Assembly (NCBI GenBank): GCA_965218795.1
Contig: OZ244653.1
Location: 3,598,234-3,662,233, forward strand
Direction of reading: 5' to 3'
DNA: 64,000 nucleotides
Source: a bacterium
GTDB lineage: Bacteria; UBA8248; JACPRG01; G963555815
Shown piece by piece: positions 408 to 48,380 of this stretch. The position numbers and the translations under genes were made by a program. The notes beneath the pieces are model-generated. The model did not search any database. It worked only from the letters and a program-made list of their open reading frames with translations, and was not told the origin of the DNA. Position 1 is the first letter of the stretch, and every line of letters starts with the position of its first letter.

Positions 408-431
408 CGGCGAACGGAATCCGCTGGCCCG

Positions 432-533
432 CGTTCTCCTTTCCAAGCACGGGAGGCTGGACGGTCACCCCTCCAACCCTGTCGGCCCTGGGGTCATGGC
501 CCATCCGCCATGCACCCGCGGGCTCGGAGAACG
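432..533 (-). ncRNA. Candidate molybdenum-cofactor (Moco) riboswitch aptamer in the moaA leader
   Basis: The minus-strand RNA has a perfect 8-bp closing helix: CGUUCUCC (533-526) pairs with GGAGAACG (439-432). The 5' side reads CUCCGAGCC. The 3' side reads CAGCCUCCCGUGCUUGGAAAGGAGAAC, which resembles my recollection of the E. coli moaA leader end (GCCUCCCGUAUCUGGAAAGG). There is an internal hairpin CAUGGC/GCCAUG. Its position upstream of moaA fits the class. Confidence 0.55.
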
Positions 534-563
534 GCAATGCTGTCATTCAACGTTCGTCTATTC

Positions 564-9309: not shown

Positions 9310-9323
9310 AGGGGACCCGAAGC

Positions 9324-25900: not shown

Positions 25901-25903
25901 GCG

Positions 25904-27724: not shown

Positions 27725-27839
27725 GCCTGTCCGCGAAGGGCCGGGGAAGATCGACCCGTCCCGCCGGATGGACCGTCGGGCAGGCCGGATGTTCCTTGCT
27801 CGAAAACCGATATCTTTGCGGGGCTGAGACCGGGACGTG

Positions 27840-29915
27840 ATGGACCGACCTTTGCGTCTGCAGGGGACCGATGGGATTCGCGCCGCCGTGGGTCCTGATA
27901 ATGAAGCGAGCCGGCGGGATCCCCTGGGAACCTACCTGCGGACCGGACGCCTGACTCCGGCTTTCGCCACACTGTACGCCCGGGCCTTTGCGGAGGAGGA
28001 GACATCCCCCGGGGAGGAAGTCATTGTCGGATGGGACCCCCGGGACCGCGGCGGAGATTTCACCAAGGCGGTCGTCGGAGGCGTCCTCCAGGCCGGTCGC
28101 AGGCCGGTCGTTCTGGGAACCGTTCCGACCCCCGCCGTCCCCCTGCTCATGATCCGGCGGAAGTCCAACGCCGGGATCATGGTGACGGCCTCGCACAACC
28201 CCGAAAGCCAGAACGGACTCAAGCTCTTCCTCGGCCCCCTCGCGACCAAGCTCTACCCGGCGGATGAGGAGCGGCTGACCCGGAAAGTGTACGACCTGGG
28301 TGGAAGTCCGGCCCGTTCGTCCTCGGAAGGAGAGCCTTTGCTGAGGGAGGCCGAGGCACGGAGAGCCTTCATCGATGACTCCTGCGACCCGTTCAATTCC
28401 TGGCTGCCCGAACCCGTCCCAGGCGGGTCCGGCGCAGCCGAGGGACCCTTGGCGGATCTTCTGCTCGTGGTGGACGCCGCGGGGGGAAGCATGGCGGGTT
28501 TGGCCGCCGATGTCCTCCGCCGCCTGGGGGCCGGCGAAGTGGTTGAAGTGAACGGCACCGGCGCCCCGATCAACGAGGATGGGGGGGTGGTCGATCTGGA
28601 ACAGGTCCATTGGGTCGACGCCGATTGCCGAAGCGACGCCGGCAAGGACTTCAGCCGACACGCGGGGGTCGCCGCCTTGATCGAGGCCGCCGGCGGATGC
28701 CGCCCGGAGCTCCTGTCCGGAAAGCGTTGGGCCGCGGGCGCGGTTTTTGACGGCGACGGCGACCGCGCCGTTCTCCTGTTCTACGATCCGTTCAGCGAAG
28801 GGGCTGCGGTGCTGGACGGCGATCGGGCCGCCCTCCATATGGCGAGGTTTCTGTCGGACGCGGACCCGAATGGCTGGAAGGGGACCTCGTATGTCAATAC
28901 GGTGGACAGCGACCTGGGTGCGGCGGCGGCCGCATCGGAGTTGGGGTTTGCGCCCGCGCTCTCGGCGGTCGGAGACAAGTGGTTGCTCTGGCGCGCGGGA
29001 CTGGCCTGCGCCCGCGCAGGGGCCGATGAGGCGGGGGGGGCTTCGGGATCGCTGGGAGCGTTGGAGGCGGGAGAGGGCGACGCCCGCGCGCTCGCCGCGT
29101 ATCTGCGGGATCTGAGCCGGGAGCCGGCCGATGCCTTGCTGACCCCCGGAAGGATCCCCTTTGCCCTGGGGAGCGAGGCGTCGGGCCATCACGTGACCCT
29201 GGGGCGCACGCAGGTCGACGGAAACTTCTCTCCCGTATTCGCCGGCAACGGCCTCAAGGCGGCGACAAACACCCTTGCGGCGATTCGGGCGCTCTCCATG
29301 GGAAGGTCCGTCGGCGAGTGGGTCGAGGCGGTGTGCCGACCTTACCCGACGGGGTATCGAAAAACCTACTACGCCTTTTACACGGACCGGGAGAAATTCG
29401 CGCCCGGGACCGATGCCTGGCGCAAGATGGAAGAGCTTCTCCCCCGGACGTGCGAATCGAAGTTGGGGAAGCGCTGCCGGTCCCGCCGGTTGAGAATCTC
29501 CGAAGACCCCGGCATGCTGTATCTCGCGCTGGAGGATGCCGAGGGCGTTCAGCGGGCCGCGGTTTTCGTCCGGAATTCCGGGACGGAGGAACGGACGGGC
29601 GTGACGGTCCAGGGCGTTCCGGGCGAGGCGGCGGCTCTGGATGAAATCGGAGAGACTGGCCTCCGCTCTCTCCTCGCGGACCTCAAGCGCGGCGGCCATC
29701 CGTACGCTGAGGCGGAGAGGGAGATATTGGGACGGCTCACGGGCGGAACGTTAAGCGTCGAGGAAGCCGGAAAAGAGGTAGGGAAACATGTAGAGGTCCG
29801 GCGACTGTTCAAGGAAATGAAGCGCCAGGGCCTGATTCTCGTGGAGGGCGGGACCGTTGCCGCAACGGACATCGGTCGGTGGTACGCGGAGAATGCGGCG
29901 GCGCCGTCAGGGTGA
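27840..29915 (+). CDS. Alpha-D-phosphohexomutase-family protein (GlmM-like) with large insertions and a C-terminal extension
   Basis: All four family motifs are present: TASHNPESQNG (active Ser), FDGDGDR (Mg), GSEASGH (sugar loop) and RNSGTEERTG (phosphate loop). The protein has about 690 aa. The last 90 aa or so (LSVEEAGKEVGKHVEVRRLFKEMKRQGLILVEGG) look winged-helix-like. Confidence 0.8.
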   Translation: MDRPLRLQGTDGIRAAVGPDNEASRRDPLGTYLRTGRLTPAFATLYARAFAEEETSPGEEVIVGWDPRDRGGDFTKAVVGGVLQAGRRPVVLGTVPTPAVPLLMIRRKSNAGIMVTASHNPESQNGLKLFLGPLATKLYPADEERLTRKVYDLGGSPARSSSEGEPLLREAEARRAFIDDSCDPFNSWLPEPVPGGSGAAEGPLADLLLVVDAAGGSMAGLAADVLRRLGAGEVVEVNGTGAPINEDGGVVDLEQVHWVDADCRSDAGKDFSRHAGVAALIEAAGGCRPELLSGKRWAAGAVFDGDGDRAVLLFYDPFSEGAAVLDGDRAALHMARFLSDADPNGWKGTSYVNTVDSDLGAAAAASELGFAPALSAVGDKWLLWRAGLACARAGADEAGGASGSLGALEAGEGDARALAAYLRDLSREPADALLTPGRIPFALGSEASGHHVTLGRTQVDGNFSPVFAGNGLKAATNTLAAIRALSMGRSVGEWVEAVCRPYPTGYRKTYYAFYTDREKFAPGTDAWRKMEELLPRTCESKLGKRCRSRRLRISEDPGMLYLALEDAEGVQRAAVFVRNSGTEERTGVTVQGVPGEAAALDEIGETGLRSLLADLKRGGHPYAEAEREILGRLTGGTLSVEEAGKEVGKHVEVRRLFKEMKRQGLILVEGGTVAATDIGRWYAENAAAPSG

Positions 29916-35669: not shown

Positions 35670-36419
35670 ATGATCCAAGTCGAGCATCTCTCCTTCGCTT
35701 ACGGTGATCATCCCGTCCTGGAGGACATCACCTTTTCCGTGCCCCCTGGGGGCAGCCTGGCGGTCATCGGACCCTCCGGGTGCGGGAAGACCACCCTGCT
35801 CTACAACTTGGCGGGCCTGCGGACTCCTGTCGCCGGCCGGGTGAGGATCGGCGGGGCCTTGATCCGCGGTCCGCGGGACAAAACCGCAGTCATTCTCCAA
35901 CACTACGGCCTCTTCCCCTGGAAGACTGTTTTCGAAAATGCCGCCCTCGGACTCCGGATTCGCGGGACGCCAGCCGCGGGGCGCATGCAGCGGGTCACCG
36001 CGATCCTCGAAGAACTGGGAATCGCCGCCCTTCGGGACCGGTATCCCAGCCAGATCTCGGGCGGTCAGCGGCAGCGCGTCGCCATCGCGCGCGCCCTGGC
36101 TATGGACCCCGACCTGTTGATCATGGACGAGCCGCTCTCCTCATTGGACGCCCTGACCCGTGAGGCGCACCAAAACCTCCTGCTGTCGCTTTGGCGGGAG
36201 AAGGGAATGACGCTGGTCCTCGTGAGTCACAGCATTACCGAGGCGGCCTACCTGGGCCAGCAGGTTGCGATTCTGTCCGACGGGCCGGCCCGGATCAAGG
36301 AAATCCTCGACAATTCCCGCGTGGGCGAGGAAGACTACCGGAGCCACCCGGACTATCACGACATCTGCACCCGGCTTCGGGGTCTGCTGAGAGGAGCGAT
36401 GGATGAGGCGGTGGGTTAG
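35670..36419 (+). CDS. ABC transporter ATP-binding protein (NitT/TauT family)
   Basis: GPSGCGKTTLL (Walker A), ISGGQRQRVAIARAL (signature) and LLIMDEPLSSLD (Walker B). Start at the ATG 35670 or the GTG 35649. Confidence 0.9.
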   Translation: MIQVEHLSFAYGDHPVLEDITFSVPPGGSLAVIGPSGCGKTTLLYNLAGLRTPVAGRVRIGGALIRGPRDKTAVILQHYGLFPWKTVFENAALGLRIRGTPAAGRMQRVTAILEELGIAALRDRYPSQISGGQRQRVAIARALAMDPDLLIMDEPLSSLDALTREAHQNLLLSLWREKGMTLVLVSHSITEAAYLGQQVAILSDGPARIKEILDNSRVGEEDYRSHPDYHDICTRLRGLLRGAMDEAVG

Positions 36420-37140
36420 GTACCTCTTGACGGCGGCTGTGTTGATCCTCTTGTGGGAGCTGGTGGCGCTGGCCCTGAAGAACGAGGCGCTTCCGGAGCC
36501 CTGGCGGGTCGTGATTCAGTTTTTTGCTCTCCTTGCCGCCGATCTCCCCGTGCATTTCGGCGTCAGCGTCTATCGGGTTGCGGCGGCCGTCGTGTTCGCC
36601 GTCGCCGCGGGCCTGCCGCTGGGTCTGTTGATGGGCCGTCTCCCCAAGGCGGACGCCTACATGGCCCCCGCCGTCTACCTGACCTATCCCATCCCGAAGA
36701 TTGTCCTCTTGCCCATCATTCTCCTGTTTTTGGGACTGGGGGACGCGTCGAAGATCGCCGTGATCGCCCTCATCCTGTTTTTCCAAATCCTGGTGACTGT
36801 CCGGGATGCAGTCCGCGGGATCGACGAGGAGTATTTCCTGTCGGTCCGCTCGCTCAACGCACGGGGTTGGGATGTCTTGCGGCACGTCGTCCTGCCCGCG
36901 ACCGTGGCGGAGCTCCTGACCGCCCTTCGGATCAGCGTTGGAACATCGGTGGCCGTCCTGTTCTTCGTCGAGACCATCGGCGCCCGCCGGGGTTTGGGCT
37001 ATTTCATTCAGGACGCCTGGGCCCGGGTGAATTATCAGGAGATGTACGCGGGCATTCTCGCCATGAGCCTTCTTGGCGTTTTCCTCTACGAGGTTCTGGA
37101 ACAGGCCGAAAAGCGGGCCTGCCGCTGGAAGCGAGTGTGA
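36403..37140 (+). CDS. ABC transporter permease (NitT/TauT family)
   Basis: 245 aa, multi-TM, with an EAA-like loop (VRDAVRGIDEEYFLSVRSLNARGWDVLRHVVLPA). It overlaps the ATPase gene by 17 nt. Confidence 0.9.
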   Translation: MRRWVRYLLTAAVLILLWELVALALKNEALPEPWRVVIQFFALLAADLPVHFGVSVYRVAAAVVFAVAAGLPLGLLMGRLPKADAYMAPAVYLTYPIPKIVLLPIILLFLGLGDASKIAVIALILFFQILVTVRDAVRGIDEEYFLSVRSLNARGWDVLRHVVLPATVAELLTALRISVGTSVAVLFFVETIGARRGLGYFIQDAWARVNYQEMYAGILAMSLLGVFLYEVLEQAEKRACRWKRV

Positions 37141-37352
37141 GAGAACGGCTTTGCGGCCCCCTGAATCTTCCGAAGCGATGCAATAATTTGCGAGGGGCGC
37201 TTTTGGAAGGTGACGCCCCTCTCTCGCAACAAGGTTTCTTGGCAAAGTAACAGAGTAACAGGTGGACCCGCCTCCACATCGTAAAAAGACCCGTTCTCCC
37301 ATCGTGCGCTGCTCGCACGATTCGGAGAACCACGCATTCCGCCCTGCCCTGC

Positions 37353-37382
37353 TGGTCATGGACGGCCTAAATCACCTATAAT
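37353..37382 (+). promoter_or_regulatory. Candidate sigma70 promoter P1 upstream of CIRCE
   Basis: TGGTCA (37353-37358), 18-nt spacer, TATAAT (37377-37382). CIRCE begins 20 nt downstream of the -10, which is the classical arrangement. Confidence 0.4.
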
Positions 37383-37401
37383 CAACGAATTGCGCCATAA
37401 A

Positions 37402-37428
37402 TTAGCACTCCGTCCTGGGGAGTGCCAA
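37402..37428 (+). promoter_or_regulatory. CIRCE element (HrcA operator)
   Basis: TTAGCACTC-cgtcctggg-GAGTGCCAA matches 17 of 18 positions of the CIRCE consensus TTAGCACTC-N9-GAGTGCTAA. Confidence 0.8.
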
Positions 37429-37435
37429 TAATCTC

Positions 37436-37464
37436 TTGATTCATGTTTGCGGATCGATTATATA
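37436..37464 (+). promoter_or_regulatory. Candidate sigma70 promoter P2 just downstream of CIRCE
   Basis: TTGATT (37436-37441), 17-nt spacer, TATATA (37459-37464), in an AT-rich stretch. Confidence 0.45.
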
Positions 37465-37689
37465 TTCTCTCAAAGGATTGAGGGTAAAGCGGGATCGGGT
37501 CATGCCTGTGGGGTGAGGCGCTCAAATGGTCTGATTCGATGTCCTTTATCCGAATCGAAGAATTAAAAATTTCTAATCTCATTGCTGATCTCCCCGTTGG
37601 ACCTAAGTATCGGGGAACTCGGAAAGACTCGAGGCGGCGTCTTTCGGGACGTTCGTCCATTTGAAGATGAGCACAGGGGAAGAACTGGC

Positions 37690-39081
37690 GTGCGCCGAAC
37701 CTTAAGGAACCTTGCCTTTGCAGGTATTGCCGCCGCCACGATCCTGGCGGCCGGGACCGGGTCGGCCGAGAAGCGGCCCGACAGCTTTGCTGATCTCGTG
37801 GAGCGTCTGAAGCCCACCGTCGTCAACATTCAGGTGACCATCGTCCAGCGGGGGGGCAGCCCTTTCCAAAGGCGGAGCCCCTTCGGCGGGCGACCCGACG
37901 ATCCGTTTGAGAAGTTTTTCAAGCGCTTCTTCGGCGATCAGCCCCCACGCGAGTTTCGAAACCGAGCCATCGGCTCCGGGTTCATCATCAGCCCGGACGG
38001 ATACATCGTCACGAACAATCACGTGGTCGAGAGGGCCAACGAAATCAAGGTCAAGCTGGACGACGGGAAGGAATACAAGGCGAAGCTGATCGGCCGAGAC
38101 CCGAAAACCGATCTCGCCCTCATCAAGGTCGAGCCGAAGAAATCCGTGCCCTTCACGGAGTTCGGTGATTCCGATGAGTTGCGGGTCGGCGATTGGGTGA
38201 TGGCGATAGGAAACCCGTTCGGCCTGTCCCACACCGTCACGGCGGGCATCGTGAGCGCGAAAGGCCGTGTCATCGGGCAGGGGCCGTATGACGATTTCAT
38301 CCAGACCGACGCCTCGATCAACCAGGGCAACTCGGGCGGACCTCTGTTCGACACGAAGGGTAAAGTGGTGGGAATCAACACGGCCATCATCGCCGGGGGA
38401 ACCGGTATCGGATTCGCGATTCCCGCCAACATGGCCAAAAAGCTCATCAATCAGCTTCGGGAAACCGGCACTGTGGTGCGCGGTTTCCTGGGAGTCCGGA
38501 TTCAAAACCTGACCCCGCAGCTGGCCAAGCGTTTCGGTACGGAGAAGGCCGAAGGGGCCCTGGTTTCCGACTTGACGAAAGACTCCCCCGCCGCCCGGGC
38601 CGGCGTTCGGCAGGGAGATGTGATCGTCGAATTTGACGGCCTGAAGATTCAGAACGTGTCCGATTTGGTCCGGAAGGTCGGTGCGACTGCGGTCGATAAG
38701 ACGGTGAAAATGAAGGTGTTGCGCGAGGGGAAGGGAAAGGTCCTGGATGTCAAGGTCGGCAAGCTCGCCGAGGAGCCCAGTGCGGTCGCGTCGGTCGGCA
38801 CCCCGGGAAAGTTGGGCCTGACGATTCGCCCGGTTCCCGCTGAGCGGGCCACTGAGCTCGGACTCAGAGCCGGTCAAGGCGTCCTGGTGACCGAGGTGGT
38901 TGCCGCAAGTCCTGCCGCCCGGGCGGGGATCCGCGCGGGCGACATCATTCTGGAAGTCAACGGGAAGGCCATTCGGGTGCTCGCCGACCTCAACGAGGCC
39001 GTGTCCAAGGGCAAGGAGGACCCGCTATTTTACATTCAGCGGGGCGAGAGCAAACTGTACACCGTCGTCCCCAAGGGGTGA
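37690..39081 (+). CDS. htrA: HtrA/DegP-family periplasmic serine protease with two PDZ domains
   Basis: A signal-like RRTLRNLAFAGIAAATILAAG, then GSGFIISPDGYIVTNNHVV (His), DLALIKV (Asp) and GNSGGPLFD (Ser). There are two PDZ-like segments. GTG start at 37690 with AGGGGA upstream. Confidence 0.92.
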   Translation: MRRTLRNLAFAGIAAATILAAGTGSAEKRPDSFADLVERLKPTVVNIQVTIVQRGGSPFQRRSPFGGRPDDPFEKFFKRFFGDQPPREFRNRAIGSGFIISPDGYIVTNNHVVERANEIKVKLDDGKEYKAKLIGRDPKTDLALIKVEPKKSVPFTEFGDSDELRVGDWVMAIGNPFGLSHTVTAGIVSAKGRVIGQGPYDDFIQTDASINQGNSGGPLFDTKGKVVGINTAIIAGGTGIGFAIPANMAKKLINQLRETGTVVRGFLGVRIQNLTPQLAKRFGTEKAEGALVSDLTKDSPAARAGVRQGDVIVEFDGLKIQNVSDLVRKVGATAVDKTVKMKVLREGKGKVLDVKVGKLAEEPSAVASVGTPGKLGLTIRPVPAERATELGLRAGQGVLVTEVVAASPAARAGIRAGDIILEVNGKAIRVLADLNEAVSKGKEDPLFYIQRGESKLYTVVPKG

Positions 39082-39095
39082 GAGGGTCTTCGGTC

Positions 39096-39608
39096 ATGAA
39101 CATTCCCGTCCGGGAGCCTCAAGACGATACAGTCGCGCGTCTGGCGCCGGAACCCTGTGGAGAGTCGGAGCTCTGCGTGGACCTCAAAGACGCCTATCTG
39201 GAAGAAAAGATCCTGTCCCAGCAGCTGGAAGCCCTTTCCGGTTCCACGGAGGCGGGCTGGGATCACCCACATGCGGACCGGGTGTCGTCTCTCGCAACCG
39301 AGGATGGGGCCCACATTCGAGCGCTGTTGGCGATTTTGGCTGAACTGGATACATTCCCGCCCGAGCGTCCGGAGACCGCGCATCCGCTGCCGCCGAAGAG
39401 ATCGGGCGTTCGCACAATCCTCCAGGCGTCCATGGATGGCAAGAAAGATCTGGAAATCCGATACATCCGCGCGGCCTCTCTGGCCGCCGTCGAGGGGCGT
39501 AGAGCTTTGGCCTCCCGGCTGGAAGGCATCGCGGATGAAGAGGCGCGGGGCCGGAGGAATCTGCTTCAGGTCCTCTCGCGGTTCCCTGCGAATCAGCCCG
39601 AGGATTGA
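39096..39608 (+). CDS. Hypothetical protein (about 170 aa, no recognised motif)
   Basis: An ORF tightly packed between htrA (14-nt gap) and the cyclase gene (2-nt gap). GAGAGGG lies 9-15 nt upstream of the ATG. It is the same ORF as the track's 39078 entry. Confidence 0.5.
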   Translation: MNIPVREPQDDTVARLAPEPCGESELCVDLKDAYLEEKILSQQLEALSGSTEAGWDHPHADRVSSLATEDGAHIRALLAILAELDTFPPERPETAHPLPPKRSGVRTILQASMDGKKDLEIRYIRAASLAAVEGRRALASRLEGIADEEARGRRNLLQVLSRFPANQPED

Positions 39609-39610
39609 GC

Positions 39611-40687
39611 ATGGTCCGAAACGCCGCCAAGACCGACGCCCCTGCGGCGGAACCCAAGGTGAACGGGAAGAAGAAGGCCGAAAAAGGGGAACGGGTACCT
39701 CGGGGAGGCCGGCAGGCAACGGGCGCCGCGGCGGCAAGGGCCCGGCGGGCTGTGAAACCCGAGGAGGTTCCGGTCCGGAAGGATCCGACCCGGTCTCTGA
39801 TCGCCGCCGCGCTCCGATTGGCCAAACAGCTCGATATCGACGCCGTGTTCATCTACGCTCAATCCATTTCCCAGGCGCCCAGCCTTTTTCAATTGTTCCA
39901 GGACGGTCCCAGTCTTCTGCTGATCGCGAGGAATGATGATGAGGAGGCGATGTGCAAGGGGCACTCCAAGAAGATCATTCGCGTTCCGGATATCAACCTG
40001 AGCCGAATGGACCAGGTCAAGCTGGCGGTGGTGATGGCCCTGACCGATCGGATGCTGAACGTGGGAGACCGCATTCTGTGTCTGGTGGGGCGGGTCAACC
40101 GCCACACCTCCGACACGCTCGTCGTATTGGATGTAGGCGATGAGTTCGAGACCATGAATCTCCCCGGCCAGTTGTCCCGTTCCAAGGAGATCGACTCCAA
40201 GGTCTTTGAGGCCACCCTGAGGATGGCCCTGGAGTTGGCGAACGAGGGCCGGGAGGGAAGGCCGATCGGCTCCATCTTCGTAATTGGGGACAGTGAGGAA
40301 GTCTCGCGCTACTCCCGGCAAACCATCATCAATCCGTTCGAGGGCCACCCCGAATCCCGCCGGAACATCCTGGATCCGCATCTGCGGGAAACGGTCAAGG
40401 AGTTTTCCACGCTGGACGGCGCGTTCCTGATTCGAAAAGACGGCGTTCTGATGGCCGCGGGCCGCCACTTGAACGCCGCCTATAACGGCGACGGTTTGCC
40501 CTCCGGCCTGGGGTCCAGACACGCCGCCGCCGCCGCCATCACGTCGGTGACCAAAGCGCTGGCCCTCACCATCTCGGAATCCACGGGAACCGTGACGGTT
40601 TTTCGCGGCGGCGAGGTCATGATGACATTGGAGAGATTTCGGCAGGCGCCCAGCCTGGCCGAAGGGGAAAACAATCTGGACCCGTGA
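39611..40687 (+). CDS. Diadenylate cyclase (DAC/DisA_N domain) protein, soluble, with a non-CdaA and non-DisA N-terminal region
   Basis: The C-terminal half reads GREGRPIGSIFVIGDSEEV...LDGAFLIRKDGVLMAAGRHL...GLGSRHAAAAAITSVTKALALTISESTGTVTVFRGG, containing the DGA and RHxAA DAC motifs. The N-terminus is a Lys/Arg/Ala-rich tail followed by an alpha/beta-looking domain. Start at the ATG 39611 or the TTG 39605. Confidence 0.85.
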   Translation: MVRNAAKTDAPAAEPKVNGKKKAEKGERVPRGGRQATGAAAARARRAVKPEEVPVRKDPTRSLIAAALRLAKQLDIDAVFIYAQSISQAPSLFQLFQDGPSLLLIARNDDEEAMCKGHSKKIIRVPDINLSRMDQVKLAVVMALTDRMLNVGDRILCLVGRVNRHTSDTLVVLDVGDEFETMNLPGQLSRSKEIDSKVFEATLRMALELANEGREGRPIGSIFVIGDSEEVSRYSRQTIINPFEGHPESRRNILDPHLRETVKEFSTLDGAFLIRKDGVLMAAGRHLNAAYNGDGLPSGLGSRHAAAAAITSVTKALALTISESTGTVTVFRGGEVMMTLERFRQAPSLAEGENNLDP

Positions 40688-40774
40688 TACCCGCCGGGCG
40701 CTTGAGGCCCGGGCGCGGCGTTCGCATTCACCCGTTACACGGCCTTTGAGCCCTGGTTGGGGAGGACAAACAGA

Positions 40775-42409
40775 ATGGCAGTCAAAGAATTGGCATATGA
40801 ACAGCAGGCCCGGTCCGAAATTCTGTCGGGCATGGATCAGTTGACGCGCGCCGTGGAGGCCACGCTGGGGCCGGCCGGTCGAACCGTGATCTTGGGAAGG
40901 AAGTGGGGCTCACCGCTGGTGACCAAGGACGGAGTGACGGTTGCGAAAGAGATCGACTTGCCCGAGCCCTTCGAGAACATGGGCGCGCAGATGGTGAAAG
41001 AGGTGGCCAAGAAGACCAACGACGACGTCGGAGACGGAACGACGACGGCCACCGTCCTGGCCGAGGCCATCTACCGCACCGGGCTGAAGTACGTTTCGGC
41101 CCAGGCCAATCCCGTGGACATCAAGCGCGGGATCGATGCCGCCGTGGAGACGGTGGTGGGCGAGCTCAAGAAGCAAAGCCGTCGGATCTCGGGGACGGAG
41201 CGAATCGCCAAGGTGGCCGCGGTGTCGGCCAACGGCGAGGAATCGATTGGGGAGATCATCGCAGCCGCCATCGACAAGGTCGGACGGGACGGTGTGATCA
41301 CCACCGAGGAAGGCAAGGGGATCGAGATGTCGCTCGAGGTGGTCGAAGGGATGCAGTTCGATCGGGGCTATCTCTCGCCTCATTTTGTGACTCACCCGGA
41401 CCGTTTGGAATGCGAGCTGGAAGACGTGTCCCTGTTGATCCACGAGAAGAAGATTTCCAATGTGAACGAGCTTCTGCCCATCCTCGAGAAGGTCTCCGCA
41501 TCTGGAAGATCCCTGCTGATCATCGCCGAGGATGTGGAGGGCGAAGCTCTGGCAACCTTGGTGGTCAACAAGCTGCGCGGCACCCTGAAGATCGCAGCGG
41601 TCAAGGCGCCGGGTTACGGCGATCGCCGCAAGGAGATGCTGGAAGATATCGCGGTCCTGACGGGCGGACGGATGATCACCGAGGATCTCGGCATCAAGCT
41701 GGAAGCGGTTCCTTTGGAAGACCTCGGCCGGGCGAAACGCGTGCTGATCGACAAGGAGAACACCATCGTCGTCGAGGGTGCGGGAACGGCCCGGGCCCTG
41801 AGCGGACGGTGCGCGCAGATCCGCGCGCAGATCGAGGAAACGACCTCCGAATATGACCGCGAGAAACTTCAGGAACGCCTCGCCAAGCTGTCCGGGGGCG
41901 TGGCGAAGATCCTGGTCGGCGCGGCCACCGAGACGGAAATGAAAGAGAAAAAGGCGCGGGTGGAAGACGCGCTGAACGCCACGCGGGCGGCGTTGGAGGA
42001 GGGTATCGTGGTCGGCGGCGGTGTGGCGCTGGTCCGCGCCGCCGCCGACCTGGGCTTGCTGGAGCTGCCGGGCGATCAGAACTACGGCGTAAGAGTGGTT
42101 CAGGATGCGCTGGGCGATCCGCTTCGGATCCTCGCCGAAAATGGGGGTTATGAGGGTCCCGTGGTCCTGCACGACGTCAAGAAGAAGAAGGGCGCGGTGG
42201 GCTTCAATGCGGCCACCGGCAAGATGGAGAATCTTGAAAAGGCCGGGATTGTGGATCCCGTCAAAGTGACCCGCTCCGCGCTGCAGAATGCGGCCAGCCT
42301 GGCGGGTGTCCTTCTGACGACCGAGTTGCTGGTGACGGAGAAGCCCGAGGATGAAGAGGATGAAGAAGGCGGCGATCACTCCCACGGCGGCCACGGCCAC
42401 GCCCACTGA
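40775..42409 (+). CDS. groEL: Chaperonin GroEL (no adjacent groES; acidic and His-rich C-terminal tail)
   Basis: [13 protein letters not shown]..., [24 protein letters not shown] and GGVALVRA. The tail is [20 protein letters not shown] rather than a GGM repeat. GGGGAGGA RBS. Confidence 0.97.
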
Positions 42410-42468: not shown

Positions 42469-43416
42469 ATGATTCAGGTTGAGAATCTGACGAAATTCTA
42501 TGGGCCCGTACCGGGGATTGAGGGCGTGACCTTCGGCATCGAGCCGGGGGAGATCGTGGGATTCCTCGGCCCCAATGGAGCGGGGAAGAGCACGACCATG
42601 CGCATCCTCACCTGTTATATGCCCGCTACCTCCGGAACGGCGACTGTGGGCGGGTTCGACGTCTTTGAATCCCCGCTGGAAGTCCGCCGCCGGCTGGGCT
42701 ACCTGCCTGAAAACGTCCCCATTTACCTGGACCTGACTGTTCGGGATTACCTGAACTTCGTCGGCGATCTCAAGGGGATGGACCGTAAGAAAAAGAGGCA
42801 CCAGATCGACAAGCTCATCCCTCTCACGGGGATCAAGGAGGTCGAGAACCGGATCATCGGCAACCTCTCCAAGGGGTACCGCCAGCGGGTCGGTCTCACC
42901 CAGGCCCTGCTGAACGACCCGGAGGTGCTGATTCTGGACGAGCCGACGACGGGCCTGGACCCTAAACAAATCATCGAGATCCGTGACCTCATCCGCGACC
43001 TGGCGGGAAGCCGGACCATTATTCTCTGCACGCACATCCTGCCCGAAGTCAGCATGACGTGCTCACGGGTCATCATCATCAACAAGGGCCGAATCATCAC
43101 CCAGGATACGCCCGAGAACCTCACCCGGCAACTTCAGCGGAAATCCCTGGTGGAGATCGAAGTGGAGGGGCCGGTCGAGCAAGTCCGGGACAAGCTCCAA
43201 TCGGTTCCGACGGTGGTTTCGGTTTTCCCGCAGCGGAGACCTGCGGACGGTTCGGGCTCGACCCTCTTCCATGTGGAAACGGATCCGGATACCGATATGC
43301 GTCGCGACCTGGCGGCCGCGGTGTGCGGGAGCGGGTGGGGGCTGATGACCCTCAAGCCCGTCTCCATGACCCTGGAAGACATCTTCGTCCAGTTGGTGAC
43401 GGAAGAAGAGCACTAG
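42469..43416 (+). CDS. ABC transporter ATP-binding protein (ABC-2/GldA-like)
   Basis: GPNGAGKSTTM, LSKGYRQRVGLTQAL and LILDEPTTGLDP. Confidence 0.9.
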   Translation: MIQVENLTKFYGPVPGIEGVTFGIEPGEIVGFLGPNGAGKSTTMRILTCYMPATSGTATVGGFDVFESPLEVRRRLGYLPENVPIYLDLTVRDYLNFVGDLKGMDRKKKRHQIDKLIPLTGIKEVENRIIGNLSKGYRQRVGLTQALLNDPEVLILDEPTTGLDPKQIIEIRDLIRDLAGSRTIILCTHILPEVSMTCSRVIIINKGRIITQDTPENLTRQLQRKSLVEIEVEGPVEQVRDKLQSVPTVVSVFPQRRPADGSGSTLFHVETDPDTDMRRDLAAAVCGSGWGLMTLKPVSMTLEDIFVQLVTEEEH

Positions 43417-43479
43417 GATTGACCCGGAAGATCCGGTCCGTCGGCTCTTTGCGGCGGATTGACGGAGGACGTTTTCAGC

Positions 43480-44250
43480 ATGAGAAACATTTGGGCCATC
43501 TATAAGAAGGAATTGCGGCTCTATTTCCATTCGCCCATCGCGTATGTCGTCTTAACGATTTTTCTGGTCCTGATGGGCTGGCTGTTTTACAGCAACATGG
43601 CCTTTTTCAGCCGGATCAGCGTTCAGGCGGTCCAGAACCCCCGCCTGTCCAGCCAGCTGGATGCGACCGACGCGATCTTTACGCCGCTCATCGGAAACAT
43701 GACCATCATCCTGCTGTTCATCATCCCGGGATTGACCATGAGGCTGTTTGCCGAAGAGAAAAAGCAGGGGACGCTGGAACTCCTTTATTCCTATCCGGTC
43801 CGCGACGGCGAGGTATTGTTCGGCAAGTTCTTCGCGTGTTTCACGGTCTTCCTCATTATGCTGGCTCTCACGGCCTTGTATCCGATCCTGATCGGCGTGT
43901 TCGGCTCGCTGGAAATTCGGCCGGTGCTCGCCGGTTACCTGGGGGTTCTCCTGCTTGGGATGACGTTCATCTCGGTGGGGGTGTTGATGTCTTCGTTGAC
44001 GTCCAATCAGTTGGTGGCGTTCATCCTCGGCTTCGGGATCCTCCTGTTTTTCTGGGTCCTCGGGTTCGCATCAGCCTATCTGGACCCGAAGATGGCAGCC
44101 GTGCTGGATCACGCCTCCCTGATCCAGCATGTGAACAATTTTTCCCGGGGGCTCATCACCACCCGCGACCTGATCTACTATGTGAATTTCAGCGTCTTCT
44201 GTCTGTTCCTGACCGTCCAGGCGCTGGCCTCTCACCGATGGAAAGGTTGA
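43480..44250 (+). CDS. ABC-2 type permease (GldF-like)
   Basis: MRNIWAIYKKELRLYFHSPIAYVVL and six predicted TM segments, with FAEEKKQGTLELL. Confidence 0.8.
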   Translation: MRNIWAIYKKELRLYFHSPIAYVVLTIFLVLMGWLFYSNMAFFSRISVQAVQNPRLSSQLDATDAIFTPLIGNMTIILLFIIPGLTMRLFAEEKKQGTLELLYSYPVRDGEVLFGKFFACFTVFLIMLALTALYPILIGVFGSLEIRPVLAGYLGVLLLGMTFISVGVLMSSLTSNQLVAFILGFGILLFFWVLGFASAYLDPKMAAVLDHASLIQHVNNFSRGLITTRDLIYYVNFSVFCLFLTVQALASHRWKG

Positions 44251-44256
44251 TCCGTC

Positions 44257-45828
44257 ATGAATAAGGAGCGATTTCCGCTGGTCGTCGGATCCCTGGGGAT
44301 CCTGCTTTTCTTGATTGGGATCTTCGGGGGCGCCATCGAAGGGCGATTCGGACTGCTCTTTCTCACCCTTGTGCTGGTGGGTCTGGCCCTGTTCCTGGTT
44401 TTCCTGTACCTGGCCGGGACCATCGTGCGCGTCTGGATGAACCGGCGGTCCACGCGGTACGGCACGAATCTGGCCGTCATGGCCCTGGTGGCCTTCGCCG
44501 TCGCCATCTTCATCGAGACCCTCTCCTACAGTCATTACAAACAGTTCGACGTGACCGGGGACCGGCTGAATTCCCTGTCCGCGCAGACCCTCCAGATTTT
44601 GAAAGGGCTGGAGAAGGACGACGAGAAAGTCCAGGTCGTGGCCTTCGTCCGTGACAGCGATCGAAAGGGGTATCAAGACCTGCTGGACCTGTACGCCTAT
44701 GTCACCGACCGCTTCCAATACGAAATGGTCGATCTGGACAAGAACCCACTGCTGGCCAAGAAGTTCGATGTCCGGGCGTACGGCACGCTGGTCTTTGAAT
44801 CGGGCGAGAACCGCCAGAAGGTGGAGCTCGCCACCGAGCAAAACATGGCCAACGCGATCCTCAAGGTGACCCGGACGGCCAAGAAAACCGTCTATTTTCT
44901 GAAAGGCCACGGCGAGGGGGACATCAGCAGCACGGAGAAAGACGGCTTTTCCCAGGCCAAACGGGCCATCGAGCTCGAGAACATGGTAGCGAAGGACCTG
45001 GTCCTTCTTCGGGCCAACGTCGTCCCGAAGGACGCCTCCGTCGTCGTCCTTGCCGGACCCCGAAAGGCCATCACCGAAACCGAGCAGAAGATGCTGGACG
45101 ATTATGTCCGCAAACGCTCGGGAAGCCTTCTCCTGCTCATCGACCCGCAGACGGATTCCAGGCTGGGGACTTTCCTGAAGCCTTACGGAATCGTTCTCTC
45201 CGGTGACATCATCGTGGACCGGCTGAGCCGGCTGTTCGGAGCCAGTGAGCTGACGCCCGTCGTAACCCAGTATGCCAAGCACAAAATCACGGAGGGATTC
45301 AACTCGGCCTCGTTTTTCCCCCTGGCGCGGTCCGTGCAGATTGCCGGGAAAGACGAGCTCCCCAAAAAGGCGAAGGCCGAAATCCTGGCCCTGACGGGGC
45401 CGGGGAGCTGGGCGGAGACCGATCTGGAGAAGCTGGGAAAGGGGGAGGCCGAGCTGGATGAGGAAGAGGAACTGAAGGGGCCGATCCCCGTCGGCGTCGT
45501 TGTCGAGTATGAGACCAAAGAGGCGAATCCTTCAGAGGGCGATCTCGGCCAGCGGGCCCGGCTTGCGGTCTTCGGAAACTCGCGGTTCGCCAGCAACGAG
45601 GTGCTGGGCGCCTCGGGAAACCGGGATCTGTTCATGAACAGTCTGAGCTGGCTCGCCCAGCAGGAAGACCTCATTTCCATCCGTCCCCGGGCGCGGCAGG
45701 GAAGCGGACCCATTTTCCTGTCGGCCGCTCAATCGCGCGCCATCTTGATCATTCCAGTGTTCGTCCTGCCGGGGCTGGTCCTGTTGTCCGGGGCGGCCGT
45801 GTATCTCCGGAGGAGAAAGAAGCATTGA
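44257..45828 (+). CDS. GldG-like ABC-transport auxiliary component
   Basis: 523 aa with N- and C-terminal TM anchors around a large soluble domain. It lies directly after the ABC-2 ATPase and permease genes, which is the standard GldA/F/G order. Confidence 0.75.
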   Translation: MNKERFPLVVGSLGILLFLIGIFGGAIEGRFGLLFLTLVLVGLALFLVFLYLAGTIVRVWMNRRSTRYGTNLAVMALVAFAVAIFIETLSYSHYKQFDVTGDRLNSLSAQTLQILKGLEKDDEKVQVVAFVRDSDRKGYQDLLDLYAYVTDRFQYEMVDLDKNPLLAKKFDVRAYGTLVFESGENRQKVELATEQNMANAILKVTRTAKKTVYFLKGHGEGDISSTEKDGFSQAKRAIELENMVAKDLVLLRANVVPKDASVVVLAGPRKAITETEQKMLDDYVRKRSGSLLLLIDPQTDSRLGTFLKPYGIVLSGDIIVDRLSRLFGASELTPVVTQYAKHKITEGFNSASFFPLARSVQIAGKDELPKKAKAEILALTGPGSWAETDLEKLGKGEAELDEEEELKGPIPVGVVVEYETKEANPSEGDLGQRARLAVFGNSRFASNEVLGASGNRDLFMNSLSWLAQQEDLISIRPRARQGSGPIFLSAAQSRAILIIPVFVLPGLVLLSGAAVYLRRRKKH

Positions 45829-47633
45829 ACGTTCGTCTGACCGCAACCCTGGCCGTCGTCCTGGCCGTTCTGATCACCGCCTACGTCTGGTCACTCCGCG
45901 TGGACGAGGAGCGGAAAGAAGCCGAGAAGCGGGAGGCCAAAGTTGTCCGGATCGATTCCGACAAGGTCGTGGCCATCGACCTGCGCCCGGCGAAGGATCA
46001 AGACAAAGCCTCAGCGCCGCTCTCACTGATCAAGGAAGGCGGCGTCTGGCGTCTCACCGTGCCGCTGAAGCTGCGGGCGGACTCCAGGGCGGTCGATGAT
46101 ATTCTCAGCTCCATCGGGGAGATACGGAGGAGCCGGGTCATACAGGAATCCGCTGAGGATATCTCCGCCTTCGGGCTGAAGCCGGCCAAGCTCACGGTTC
46201 AGTACAAGCTGGATGGCGGGGAGCAGGGCAAGCTGCTGTTCGGCGAAGAGAGCCCCTCGGGCGAGGGCGTGTACGCCGCGGTCGAGGGAAGAAGCACGGT
46301 CTACCTCCTCTCCAAGCGCGCCCGCAGCCCCTTTGAGAAGTCCCTCTATCAAGTCCGAGACAAGACCGTTCTCCGCCGCCCGCGCGGGGAAATCGGGCAA
46401 ATCATCTTCGAGCGGGATGGGAAGCGGTATTCCCTCCGAAAGGCGGGCCCGGACAAGTGGGACATGGTCGAACCCGTCGCGGCGCCGGGGAATATCGAGA
46501 CGGCCAACTACGCGCTGGGCCTGACCGTTCAAGGCAAAGTCCAGAAGTTCGTCAAGGAAAACCCGACCGCTGAGGATTTGAAGAAGTTCGGCCTGGATCC
46601 CCCCAAGATTCGGATGACCCTCGCGGACAAGGACGGGAAGAACCCGGACGTCTTCATTATCGGCGGTCAGGAGGAGGGTACGAAGAACTATTACGCCCGC
46701 AAGGAAGGAAGCGGCCCCTTGTTCACGCTGGAGCGGTTCAGCGTGGAGGACCTGCCCAAGAAGCCGTTGGAGGCCCGCAAGCGTTGGATCTTCGATTTCG
46801 AGAAGGAGTCCGTCGTCAAGGTGGAGCTCGAAAGCCCTGCCGGGAAGGTCACCATTCGGCAACTGGGCAAGAAGGATGAGTGGGAAGTCGAGGGCGCCGA
46901 CGGCAAGCTGCCGGGCAATGACCGCCGAATCAGCGATATGCTCTGGGACATCAAGTACGCAAAGATCGCACACTTCTACGATGAAGGCTCCGACAAGCCG
47001 GACACATCGCTGGTCGATCGGGTCACTCGAAAGGTCGCCCTGTACGTCGAGGGCCGGGAAGACAAACCGCTCCGTTTCACCGTCGGGCAGCAGGGCCCTT
47101 CCGACCCTGCCCAGAAAGATGAAGAGGACCGGGAGCGGTGGTATGCCCGCAGGAATGCAGACGGCAAAATGTTTCTTCTGACCCGGGACAGTGTCAACCG
47201 GATCAGCAAAGGGGTATGGGATTTTCAGGAGCGAAAGGCCCTGAGCTTCGGCTACCAGGACGTTGCGAAGCTGGATTTCATCTATCCGAAGGAAAAGGTG
47301 GAAATCGAAAAGGATGGCCGCCGGTGGAAGATGGTCAAACCGCTGGATGAGATCGCCGTCGGTGACAAACTGGACTTTATTCTCAACGAGATTCATTTCA
47401 TGGAATTCGAAAAGATCGTCAAAGACGAAAAACCCGATTTTGCCTCCGTGGATCTTGGGTTGCGCGTCACGTTGAAGGATGGGAAGAAACTCCCGCTGCT
47501 CCGGCTCGTTCGAGACAGGGAAAAGAAGATCGCCTACGTCAGCCGCGGGAAAGAATCCAGGGTGTACGAGATCGAGGACCGGTTCCTCGACAATGTTCCC
47601 AAGAGCTACAAGGGATTCCTCGCCAAGGAGTGA
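45825..47633 (+). CDS. DUF4340-like protein (N-terminal anchor, repeated beta-rich modules)
   Basis: 602 aa with a TTGA start/stop overlap with the gldG-like gene. The position and architecture match the DUF4340 partner that usually follows GldG-like genes. This is a call from context. Confidence 0.6.
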   Translation: MNVRLTATLAVVLAVLITAYVWSLRVDEERKEAEKREAKVVRIDSDKVVAIDLRPAKDQDKASAPLSLIKEGGVWRLTVPLKLRADSRAVDDILSSIGEIRRSRVIQESAEDISAFGLKPAKLTVQYKLDGGEQGKLLFGEESPSGEGVYAAVEGRSTVYLLSKRARSPFEKSLYQVRDKTVLRRPRGEIGQIIFERDGKRYSLRKAGPDKWDMVEPVAAPGNIETANYALGLTVQGKVQKFVKENPTAEDLKKFGLDPPKIRMTLADKDGKNPDVFIIGGQEEGTKNYYARKEGSGPLFTLERFSVEDLPKKPLEARKRWIFDFEKESVVKVELESPAGKVTIRQLGKKDEWEVEGADGKLPGNDRRISDMLWDIKYAKIAHFYDEGSDKPDTSLVDRVTRKVALYVEGREDKPLRFTVGQQGPSDPAQKDEEDRERWYARRNADGKMFLLTRDSVNRISKGVWDFQERKALSFGYQDVAKLDFIYPKEKVEIEKDGRRWKMVKPLDEIAVGDKLDFILNEIHFMEFEKIVKDEKPDFASVDLGLRVTLKDGKKLPLLRLVRDREKKIAYVSRGKESRVYEIEDRFLDNVPKSYKGFLAKE

Positions 47634-47765: not shown

Positions 47766-47794
47766 TTGTCGGACCAGACGGGAAGTTATATATT
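47766..47794 (+). promoter_or_regulatory. Candidate sigma70 promoter upstream of ORF 47895
   Basis: TTGTCG (47766-47771), 17-nt spacer, TATATT (47789-47794). Confidence 0.35.
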
Positions 47795-47894: not shown

Positions 47895-48380
47895 ATGTGG
47901 GATGGGCTGAAACCTGGACCTCAATATGAGCAATTGAGCCAAGCCATCATCCAGGCCATTCTCTCCTCGTCGGAGGTTCAGGCCCTGGTGGCGGATCTTC
48001 ACGAGAAGGGCGGTCTCGAAGCGGAAGACATCGTCGCCTTGGCCCTGCGCTTCCCGCCGCAGGGGGGGCTGGAGGCCAAGGTTGAACTCATGCGACGGAG
48101 CGAAGGCGAAGAATCCGGGGAGCCGGTGGAAGAGGAAGCGGGCGCGATGGATCTGGAAGAAGAATTCTCCGGGCAGGACACCGATTCCGGGTTCAAGCCC
48201 AGGGGCTCCATGAATTCCCGATCGCCGAACGAAATCGCTTTTGAGAATTTCCTCCGAGATCGGTTCGACAGCGAGGCCTGGATGAAGAAGGTAGGCATCC
48301 GGTTTTTAAAGGGGAAAGATTCAGGGATTTTTCTCAACGAAGGAGAATCCCCGATGGAGGAATCGGAGCAACCCGGCTGA
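47895..48380 (+). CDS. Hypothetical acidic protein
   Basis: A 161-aa ORF with GGAAAGGAAG upstream of the ATG. I recognised no motif. A strong palindromic terminator follows it. Confidence 0.4.
   Translation: MWDGLKPGPQYEQLSQAIIQAILSSSEVQALVADLHEKGGLEAEDIVALALRFPPQGGLEAKVELMRRSEGEESGEPVEEEAGAMDLEEEFSGQDTDSGFKPRGSMNSRSPNEIAFENFLRDRFDSEAWMKKVGIRFLKGKDSGIFLNEGESPMEESEQPG

What the first reader, a model, noticed from the sequence alone, without database searches (positions are those of the whole stretch)
37353..42409. CIRCE operator in front of an htrA - orf - diadenylate cyclase - groEL block
Seen: TTAGCACTC-N9-GAGTGCCAA (17/18 match to the CIRCE consensus) lies at 37402-37428, in an unusually AT-rich 550-nt spacer. 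It is bracketed by two sigma70-like promoters (TGGTCA-N18-TATAAT and TTGATT-N17-TATATA). The four downstream genes are co-directional with gaps of 14, 2 and 87 nt. I can find no promoter-like hexamers and no U-tailed terminator in the 87-nt gap before groEL, and no second CIRCE there.

Established: HrcA/CIRCE classically controls groESL and dnaK operons.

Inference: HrcA would here co-regulate a periplasmic protease, an unknown protein, a c-di-AMP synthase and a GroES-less GroEL paralogue. That would wire c-di-AMP production into the heat-shock regulon, a link I am not aware of being described.
Basis: partly seen in the sequence, partly recalled or inferred. Interest (0 to 1): 0.7.

Follow-up and report, generated by a model that had tools for sequence, protein, structure and literature searches.

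The report
Heat-shock operator before htrA–cyclase–groEL operon
A near-perfect copy of the bacterial heat-shock operator CIRCE sits next to the promoter of an operon encoding a periplasmic protease, a ferritin-like protein, a c-di-AMP synthase and GroEL, and the arrangement is conserved in seven lineages of uncultivated Nitrospinota-type bacteria, so heat-shock control of c-di-AMP synthesis there is plausible but unproven.

Summary
TTAGCACTC-N9-GAGTGCCAA lies at 37402-37428: 17 of 18 consensus positions, the only match in 64 kb, none expected by chance.

Six related lineages carry the same arrangement: CIRCE, then 6-7 nt, then a TTGAYY-N17-TATATW promoter, a 225-240-nt leader, and htrA, a 170-aa ferritin-like gene, a DacZ-type diadenylate cyclase gene and groEL. 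Five of the six fetched loci also continue into ABC-2, GldG-like and DUF4340 genes. The CIRCE arms are 90-94% identical across lineages. The 9-nt spacer and the upstream flank are about 40% identical, which indicates selection on the arms as a protein-binding site.

- Only the downstream promoter is conserved, so CIRCE lies upstream of its -35 box, which is an unusual position. The upstream promoter is specific to this window.
- The co-directional block probably runs on to 47633.
- htrA-cyclase linkage predates CIRCE: sister lineages have the same promoter and htrA-dac(-groEL) without CIRCE or the ferritin-like gene.

Still open: I could not check for hrcA, co-transcription is inferred, and whether this GroEL is a second copy is unknown. 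No paper I found links HrcA to a diadenylate cyclase. Verdict: a new variant of a known regulon, of moderate interest.

The parts
37353..37382 (+). Promoter-like site P1 (TGGTCA-N18-TATAAT), upstream of CIRCE. It is specific to this window.
   Evidence: 10 of 12. No counterpart is found in L095, L003 or L001.
37402..37428 (+). CIRCE inverted repeat TTAGCACTC-N9-GAGTGCCAA, the inferred HrcA operator.
   Evidence: one mismatch, unique in the window, 0 expected by chance. Orthologous sites occur in L001, L003, L012, L013, L092, L093 and L095. Arms are 0.90-0.94 identical and the spacer 0.40.
37436..37464 (+). Conserved sigma70-type promoter P2 (TTGATT-N17-TATATA), 7 nt downstream of CIRCE.
   Evidence: TTGAYY-N17/18-TATATW lies 216-240 nt before htrA in seven CIRCE-bearing loci and in the CIRCE-less L014 and L015. 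It is the only promoter the scanner calls in L095, L003 and L001.
37465..37689 (+). Long 5' leader of about 225 nt, conserved in length. Its function is unknown.
   Evidence: No Rfam family matches. The fold z-score is -1.8 and the consensus structure is weak.
37690..39081 (+). htrA: Do/DegP-family serine protease, 463 aa, with a signal peptide and two PDZ domains.
   Evidence: (TIGR02037, 501.6 bits against a cut-off of 416). The signal peptide is read directly from the sequence.
39096..39608 (+). orf170: a lineage-specific ferritin-like four-helix-bundle protein.
   Evidence: No Pfam or NCBIfam hit. Only 9 clusters exist in the 5.8-billion-protein database. The AF2 model has pLDDT 82.7 and TM-scores of 0.67-0.71 to ferritins and bacterioferritins. 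54-87% identity across its database homologues shows it is a real gene.
39611..40687 (+). Diadenylate cyclase of the DacZ/CdaZ type (DacZ_P plus DAC domains), with a basic N-terminal extension of about 60 aa.
   Evidence: The DGA motif is present. The RHR motif reads RHA, and this is invariant in the family.
40688..40774 (+). dac-groEL spacer: a GC-rich hairpin with no U tail and no conserved promoter. Only the ribosome-binding site is conserved.
40775..42409 (+). groEL: group I chaperonin, 544 aa, with an acidic, His-rich C-terminal tail. No groES is adjacent.
   Evidence: (TIGR02348, 777.7 bits).
42469..47633 (+). Probable downstream extension of the operon: ABC ATPase (42469-43416), ABC-2 permease (43480-44250), GldG-like ABC_transp_aux (44257-45828) and a DUF4340 protein (45825-47633).
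   Evidence: The genes are co-directional, with gaps of 59, 63 and 6 nt and a 4-nt overlap. No terminator follows groEL. The same genes follow groEL in L001, L012, L013, L014 and L095 (all four genes) and in L092 and L093 (loci end within the third gene), and they precede htrA-dac in L017, L018 and L038.

Best explanation
The inverted repeat at 37402-37428 is a functional CIRCE operator, and I infer that an HrcA repressor binds it. It abuts, at 6-7 bp, the -35 box of a conserved sigma70-type promoter at 37436-37464.

That promoter drives a long-leader operon: htrA, a ferritin-like orf170, a DacZ-type diadenylate cyclase and groEL. The operon probably continues through an ABC-2, GldG-like and DUF4340 transporter to 47633.

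Proposed mechanism, all inferred:
- Without stress, HrcA kept active by GroEL occupies roughly -43 to -69 and hinders RNA polymerase at the -35 and UP region.
- When unfolded proteins titrate GroEL, HrcA lets go.
- The protease, the ferritin-like protein, the c-di-AMP synthase and GroEL then rise together.

The htrA-cyclase(-groEL) cluster and its promoter are older than the operator. CIRCE and orf170 were added in one Nitrospinota-type lineage.

Shown here: the motif, its conservation, the promoter, the gene order and the gene identities. Inferred: HrcA binding, repression from this position, co-transcription and cyclase activity.
For: - Motif: 17 of 18 match, unique in the window, none in shuffles.
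- Orthologous CIRCE sites lie before htrA in six other lineages, with 0-3 mismatches and an invariant GCACTC-N9-GAGTGC core.
- The arms are 0.94 and 0.90 identical. The spacer is 0.40 and the upstream 30 nt 0.38.
- The variants found here, TTgGCACTC and GAGTGCcAA, are the ones listed for Desulfovibrio groESL sites (PMC545781).
- In L003, L012, L013 and L092 the upstream neighbours differ and lie on the other strand, so the repeat belongs to htrA and is not a terminator for an upstream gene.
- Promoter P2 sits at a fixed distance from CIRCE and from htrA.
- Gaps between htrA, orf170 and dac are 2-24 nt in the window, L001 and L003.
- The dac-groEL spacer has no conserved promoter and no U-tailed terminator.
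- groEL is a classical HrcA target (PMC545781).
Against: - I could not check for hrcA. It is absent from the window and from all fetched loci.
- The operator is upstream of the -35 box, whereas mapped HrcA sites enclose the transcription start (PMC7464140). It is also 262-290 nt from the start codon, against 45-99 nt in PMC545781.
- Sister clade B keeps the same promoter and htrA-dac(-groEL) without CIRCE, so expression does not need HrcA.
- A different Nitrospinota MAG has groES-groEL with no CIRCE and a sigma54-like promoter instead, so the regulon is not phylum-wide.
- The GC-rich hairpin before groEL could attenuate read-through.
- There are no expression data.
Confidence: 0.62

Rival explanations
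1. CIRCE and HrcA control only the promoter-proximal genes. The cyclase and/or groEL, and the ABC genes, are expressed mainly from internal promoters that consensus scans miss, or the GC-rich hairpin after dac stops most read-through. c-di-AMP synthesis or GroEL would then not be under effective heat-shock control.
For: Spacers of 87-190 nt with strong hairpins (-33 to -42 kcal/mol) precede groEL in every lineage. A 59-nt gap precedes the ABC ATPase gene. Promoters in this GC-rich organism may not look like TTGACA/TATAAT.
Against: The best promoter-like pair in the spacers is 7-8 of 12 and is not conserved; only the ribosome-binding site is. The hairpins have no U tract. dac is separated from orf170 by only 2-24 nt, so an independent dac promoter is unlikely. 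The order htrA-dac-groEL is conserved across clades A and B.
Confidence: 0.2
2. In this particular genome CIRCE works in the classical geometry. The window-specific promoter P1 (37353-37382) starts transcription about 10-15 nt before the operator, so HrcA blocks P1 while P2 gives HrcA-independent basal expression.
For: P1 matches 10 of 12, with a perfect TATAAT 19 nt before CIRCE. The closest relative, L095, has TAAAAT at a similar distance.
Against: There is no P1 counterpart in L001, L003, L012, L092 or L093, and none is called in L095. CIRCE is nevertheless conserved in all of them at a fixed 6-7 nt from P2. About one such promoter hit is expected by chance in the scanned region.
Confidence: 0.1
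3. The repeat is no longer, or never was, an HrcA site. It could be bound by another regulator or act only as a DNA or RNA hairpin, for example as an insulator from upstream transcription, with the operon expressed constitutively from P2.
For: hrcA is unverified. The position for a repressor is unusual. Clade B manages without the repeat. In four lineages the spacer extends the hairpin to 12 bp, and the terminator scan flags it.
Against: An 18-position match to the CIRCE consensus, kept over lineages whose flanks have diverged to about 40% identity, is very unlikely without HrcA-type selection. The spacer sequence and hairpin length are not conserved. The upstream genes are divergent in several lineages, so no insulation is needed there.
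Confidence: 0.08

Closest known systems
HrcA/CIRCE heat-shock regulon (Bacillus subtilis type; delta-proteobacterial sites in PMC545781; Campylobacter footprints in PMC7464140)
   Same: The same 9-N9-9 inverted repeat, including the tolerated variants TTgGCACTC and GAGTGCcAA. It is promoter-proximal, and the operon contains groEL, the one constant regulon member.
   Different: - The first gene is htrA. groEL is fourth and has no groES.
- The operon carries a diadenylate cyclase, a ferritin-like protein and probably an ABC exporter.
- The operator lies upstream of the -35 box of the conserved promoter, rather than over the transcription start or in the 5' UTR.
- It is 262-290 nt from the start codon, against 45-99 nt.
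DacZ / DacY(CdaZ) diadenylate cyclases (Haloferax volcanii DacZ, PMC6741144)
   Same: An N-terminal PK_C-like sensor domain (PF21755) followed by a DAC domain (PF02457) with the DGA motif. The paper already notes that this family has bacterial members.
   Different: - It scores 142 bits against the haloarchaeal DacZ equivalog, whose cut-off is 430.
- It has an extra basic N-terminal tail of about 60 aa.
- Its genomic partner is htrA and groEL, not mscS.
- The RHR motif reads RHA.
- Activity is untested.
Mycobacterial GroEL1 and other multiple-chaperonin systems under CIRCE (from my own knowledge, not checked here)
   Same: A GroEL with a His-rich C-terminal tail instead of GGM repeats, under a CIRCE element.
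   Different: In mycobacteria the His-tailed copy sits next to groES, whereas here no groES is nearby. A canonical groES-linked GroEL from another Nitrospinota MAG also lacks GGM and carries His residues, so the tail may be typical of the phylum rather than of a paralogue.
cdaA-cdaR-glmM operon of Firmicutes (from my own knowledge)
   Same: A c-di-AMP synthase embedded in an operon with cell-envelope functions.
   Different: The cyclase class is different (membrane-bound CdaA), the partners are different, and no heat-shock operator is involved. Here the glmU-glmS-glmM-like genes lie about 10 kb upstream in a separate cluster.

Membership tests
HrcA/CIRCE operator | Inverted repeat TTAGCACTC-N9-GAGTGCTAA | tested here: met
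   17 of 18 at 37402-37428, unique in the window, 0 in 100 shuffles.
HrcA/CIRCE operator | Arms under selection while the spacer is free, across orthologous sites | tested here: met
   In seven lineages the arms are 0.94 and 0.90 identical, the spacer 0.40 and the flank 0.38.
HrcA/CIRCE operator | Operator overlaps the core promoter or transcription start, or lies in the 5' UTR of a chaperone operon | tested here: inconclusive
   The site lies 6-7 nt upstream of the -35 box of the only conserved promoter. It is downstream of a promoter-like site only in this window. No transcription start data exist.
HrcA/CIRCE operator | An hrcA gene in the same genome | not testable with these tools
   hrcA is absent from the 64-kb window and from the 96 loci then held. 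The rest of the 5.17-Mb or 813-kb contig could not be read.
HrcA/CIRCE operator | HrcA binding, and derepression by heat or unfolded proteins | not testable with these tools
   This needs an EMSA or footprint and expression data.
DacZ/CdaZ-class diadenylate cyclase | DAC domain plus an N-terminal PK_C-like DacZ_P domain | tested here: met
   PF02457 scores 72 bits (cut-off 27) and PF21755 scores 43.7 bits (cut-off 27.4).
DacZ/CdaZ-class diadenylate cyclase | Catalytic DGA and RHR motifs | tested here: inconclusive
   D269-G270-A271 is present and invariant. The second motif reads R303-H304-A305 and is invariant in 11 homologues. Whether RHA supports catalysis was not established.
DacZ/CdaZ-class diadenylate cyclase | NCBIfam equivalog NF041371 (haloarchaeal DacZ) cut-off | tested here: not met
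   142.2 bits against a cut-off of 430. It has the same architecture but belongs to a separate bacterial branch.
GroEL (group I chaperonin) | Equivalog score and ATPase residues | tested here: met
   TIGR02348 scores 777.7 bits against 582.1.
GroEL (group I chaperonin) | Adjacent groES and a GGM-repeat C-terminus | tested here: not met
   No GroES-like ORF is in the window or any locus apart from the unrelated L094. The tail reads [20 protein letters not shown].
HtrA/DegP (Do family) | Trypsin-like domain plus two PDZ domains, and the subfamily score | tested here: met
   TIGR02037 scores 501.6 bits against 416.2, with Trypsin_2 and two PDZ domains.
Ferritin-like superfamily (orf170) | Four-helix bundle fold with E / ExxH / E / ExxH di-iron ligands | tested here: inconclusive
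   The fold criterion is met: pLDDT 82.7 and TM 0.67-0.71 to ferritins. The sequence shows no Pfam hit for the window protein, and the best PDB profile hit has E = 0.3. Five of six ligand positions are kept, and the second His is missing (read).

The most novel reading that the evidence does not exclude
In this Nitrospinota-type lineage the cytoplasmic protein-folding sensor HrcA directly sets the transcription of a c-di-AMP synthase. It does so together with a periplasmic protease, a ferritin-like protein, a GroES-unlinked GroEL and an envelope ABC exporter. Proteotoxic or heat stress would then be converted into a c-di-AMP signal that adjusts ion, osmolyte or envelope homeostasis. The repression would come from an operator placed upstream of the -35 box, a geometry not described for HrcA.
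Probability: 0.45. Interest if true: 0.55.

Novelty: new variant of a known kind. Interest (0 to 1): 0.42.

Why it matters
HrcA regulons are usually small, limited to groESL and dnaK operons. Transcriptional control of diadenylate cyclases is poorly understood, because most known regulation acts after translation.

A conserved CIRCE in front of a cyclase-containing operon would be a concrete, testable case of a second-messenger synthase wired into the heat-shock circuit. It would also be a case of an HrcA operator acting from upstream of the -35 box.

The comparative series makes this a tidy example of regulon growth by operator gain. The cluster occurs without CIRCE, then with groEL, then with CIRCE plus a ferritin-like gene.

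The practical limit is that all carriers are uncultivated, so tests need heterologous systems or metatranscriptomes.

Tried and rejected
- **Leader as riboswitch or RNA thermometer.** No Rfam family reached the gathering score in the window. Only a meaningless snoRNA hit (E = 2.2) appeared in 37141-37720. The single-sequence fold has z = -1.8. The consensus fold of 8 leaders is -7.65 kcal/mol with two short helices. I do not claim a structured element.
- **hrcA, groES and grpE.** Pfam on most larger window ORFs found no HrcA. This is uninformative about the rest of the genome.
- **Canonical Nitrospinota groESL as a second CIRCE site.** L094 has none. It has a sigma54-like promoter instead.
- **CIRCE in the clade B and clade C loci at up to 5 mismatches, and a relaxed GCAC-N13-GTGC core.** Nothing relevant was found.
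- **Sigma32-type and sigma54-type readings of the promoter region.** I rejected both by inspection. There is no CCCCAT-like -10 box, and TGGCAC within TTGGCACTC lacks the TTGC partner.
- **The repeat as a terminator of the upstream ABC operon.** Rejected, because the upstream genes are divergent in four lineages.
- **Literature.** Searches for HrcA with diadenylate cyclase or c-di-AMP, with htrA, and with Nitrospina found no description of this link.


Full report
**1. What is in the sequence**

The sequence TTAGCACTC-CGTCCTGGG-GAGTGCCAA occupies 37402-37428. It differs from the CIRCE consensus TTAGCACTC-N9-GAGTGCTAA at one of 18 positions. It is the only match in the 64-kb window at up to three mismatches, and no dinucleotide shuffle produced a match.

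It lies in the 549-nt spacer between an ABC permease gene (36403-37140) and htrA. GC content there drops to 44-50%, against 61.5% for the window.

Two promoter-like sites flank it:
- TGGTCA-N18-TATAAT at 37353-37382.
- TTGATT-N17-TATATA at 37436-37464.

**2. The genes**

- **htrA (37690-39081).** A Do/DegP-family protease with two PDZ domains: TIGR02037, 501.6 bits against a cut-off of 416. The N-terminus reads as a Sec signal peptide.
- **orf170 (39096-39608).** It has no family hit but is a real gene. Its database homologues are 54-87% identical, and only nine clusters exist among 5.8 billion proteins. An AlphaFold2 model (pLDDT 82.7) is a four-helix bundle that matches ferritins and bacterioferritins at TM 0.67-0.71. 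Five of the six di-iron ligand positions are kept.
- **Cyclase (39611-40687).** It has the DacZ_P sensor domain plus a DAC domain. It is closest to NCBIfam DacZ but far below that model's equivalog cut-off, 142 bits against 430. It keeps the DGA motif and has RHA where CdaA has RHR. Braun et al. already noted bacterial members of the DacZ/CdaZ family (PMC6741144). Clade-A proteins carry an extra basic N-terminal tail of about 60 residues.
- **groEL (40775-42409).** A bona fide GroEL: TIGR02348, 777.7 bits, with ATPase and apical residues conserved. Its tail is acidic and His-rich. No GroES-like ORF is nearby.

**3. Provenance**

The window is part of ENA ERZ25067100 contig_7, which is 813 kb. 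Identical proteins also occur on a 5.17-Mb contig. NCBI labels the closest named relatives as Nitrospinota MAGs.

**4. Conservation**

I collected related loci through the cyclase, orf170 and GroEL.

Six further lineages share the full arrangement: L095, L001/L011, L003/L013, L012, L092 and L093. In each, CIRCE (0-3 mismatches, core GCACTC-N9-GAGTGC invariant) is followed after 6-7 nt by TTGAYY-N17-TATATW. A leader of about 225-240 nt follows, then htrA-orf170-dac-groEL. Five of the six loci (all but the shorter L003) then run on into ABC ATPase, ABC-2 permease and GldG-like genes, and L001, L012, L013 and L095 also reach the DUF4340 gene.

Across the seven lineages the two arms are 94% and 90% identical. 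The 9-nt spacer is 40% identical and the 30 nt upstream 38%. This is the pattern expected for a protein-binding palindrome.

The two arm variants seen here (G at position 3, C at position 25) are those listed for Desulfovibrio groESL sites (PMC545781).

In L003, L012, L013 and L092 the upstream neighbours differ and face the other way. The repeat therefore belongs to the htrA promoter region and is not a terminator of an upstream operon.

**5. Which promoter**

The upstream promoter P1 has no counterpart in the relatives. In L095, L003 and L001 the only sigma70-like site the scanner reports is the downstream one, P2.

P2 is also present at the same distance from htrA in the sister loci L014 and L015, which have no CIRCE at all, even at five mismatches.

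CIRCE therefore sits at about -43 to -69 relative to the start expected from P2. It is also 262-290 nt from the start codon.

Mapped HrcA sites enclose the transcription start and cover 30-40 bp (PMC7464140). Delta-proteobacterial CIRCE sites lie 45-99 nt before the start codon (PMC545781). The fixed 6-7-nt distance to the -35 box argues that operator and promoter work together, and a footprint of normal size would reach the -35 box. Repression from this position remains an inference.

**6. Extent of the transcription unit**

- htrA, orf170 and dac are separated by 2-24 nt in the window, L001 and L003.
- The dac-groEL spacers (87-190 nt) share only the ribosome-binding site. They have no promoter-like pair above 7-8 of 12 and contain GC-rich hairpins without U tracts.
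- No terminator follows groEL.
- Four more co-directional genes follow, up to 47633: ABC ATPase, ABC-2 permease, GldG-like ABC_transp_aux and DUF4340. The gaps are 59, 63 and 6 nt, followed by a 4-nt overlap.
- After 47633 comes a 261-nt spacer with a P2-like motif, TTGTCG-N17-TATATT at 47766-47794, before the next gene.

**7. Evolutionary layering**

Of 80 GTDB loci carrying homologues of the cyclase (with for the weaker matches):
- About 70 have neither htrA nor groEL beside it.
- L017, L018 and L038, and also L008 (fetched separately), have the ABC genes, then htrA, then a response-regulator/PilZ gene (gene calls available for L008 only), then dac.
- L016 has htrA-dac.
- L014 and L015 have htrA-dac-groEL, and L014 also has the ABC genes.
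- Only the clade containing the window has CIRCE and orf170.

The simplest reading is that an older htrA-cyclase envelope module first acquired groEL, and then, in one lineage, acquired CIRCE and the ferritin-like gene. The heat-shock wiring is a lineage-specific addition rather than a general property of these cyclases.

A different Nitrospinota MAG (L094) has a canonical groES-groEL pair with no CIRCE. It has a TGGCAC-N5-TTGC motif next to a sigma54-activator gene instead. HrcA control is therefore not uniform in the phylum.

**8. What could not be settled**

- hrcA is not in the window or in any fetched locus, and the rest of the genome was out of reach.
- Whether this GroEL is a second copy is unknown. 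The groES-linked GroEL of L094 also lacks GGM repeats and carries His residues, so the tail is not proof of paralogy.
- The long leader matches no Rfam family and has no convincing conserved fold. Its role is unexplained.
- Cyclase activity is inferred from homology only.

**9. Comparison with the literature, and verdict**

groESL is the only constant HrcA regulon member (PMC545781). Full-text searches found no paper that places a diadenylate cyclase or htrA under CIRCE in this way, and nothing on HrcA in Nitrospina.

The element is a member of a known operator family, in an unusual position, in front of an unusual operon. I rate it a new variant of a known kind. My confidence is about 0.6 that HrcA controls the cyclase-containing transcript. 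Interest is moderate, at 0.42.

Noticed in passing
window 420-541 (-): A Moco (molybdenum/tungsten cofactor) riboswitch, RF01055, scoring 50 bits against a gathering score of 36. The gene it would control runs off the start of the window. The overlapping + strand ORF at 141-1082 has no family hit and is probably spurious.
   Followed up: no
window 37465-37689; L001 5202-5441; L014 6051-6267: The leader between the conserved promoter and htrA keeps its length (about 216-240 nt) in lineages both with and without CIRCE. It matches no Rfam family and has only a weak consensus fold. Its role is unexplained.
   Followed up: partly
L094 about 860-880 (Nitrospinota MAG GCA_003696125.1): The canonical groES-groEL pair has no CIRCE. 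It has ATGGCACacgaaTTGCT, a sigma54 -24/-12-like motif, upstream of groES, and a sigma54-activator gene directly upstream. This suggests sigma54-dependent chaperonin expression in that lineage.
   Followed up: no
window 39611-39790 (cyclase residues 1-60): Clade-A cyclases carry a Lys/Arg/Ala-rich, probably disordered N-terminal extension. The homologues of about 295 aa in other phyla lack it.
   Followed up: no
L003 2686-2702, L093 208-224, L001 5173-5190: In several relatives the -35 box and spacer of the conserved promoter form a second palindrome, for example TTGACCC-GTT-GGGTCAA in L093. This could be an operator for another regulator. The window and L095 lack it.
   Followed up: no
window 24695-29915 (+): A glmU-like, glmS-like and phosphoglucosamine-mutase-like gene cluster lies about 10 kb upstream of the cyclase. 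In Firmicutes glmM is co-operonic with cdaA (from my own knowledge). Here the two are not adjacent.
   Followed up: no
window 47766-47794: TTGTCG-N17-TATATT, the same promoter style as before htrA, precedes the next gene (47895-48380, no family hit). It marks the likely end of the htrA operon.
   Followed up: no
L008 5268-5981; matching interval in L017, L018, L038: In the CIRCE-less lineage represented by L008, a response-regulator/PilZ gene sits between htrA and the cyclase, and a DUF1648 gene follows. L017, L018 and L038 leave a similar interval between htrA and dac. This hints at a link between c-di-GMP and c-di-AMP signalling in that version of the cluster.
   Followed up: no
window 9273-15994 (+): Two very large adjacent genes encode an AddAB-like nuclease/helicase pair (PD-(D/E)XK nuclease; UvrD helicase plus PD-(D/E)XK).
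   Followed up: no
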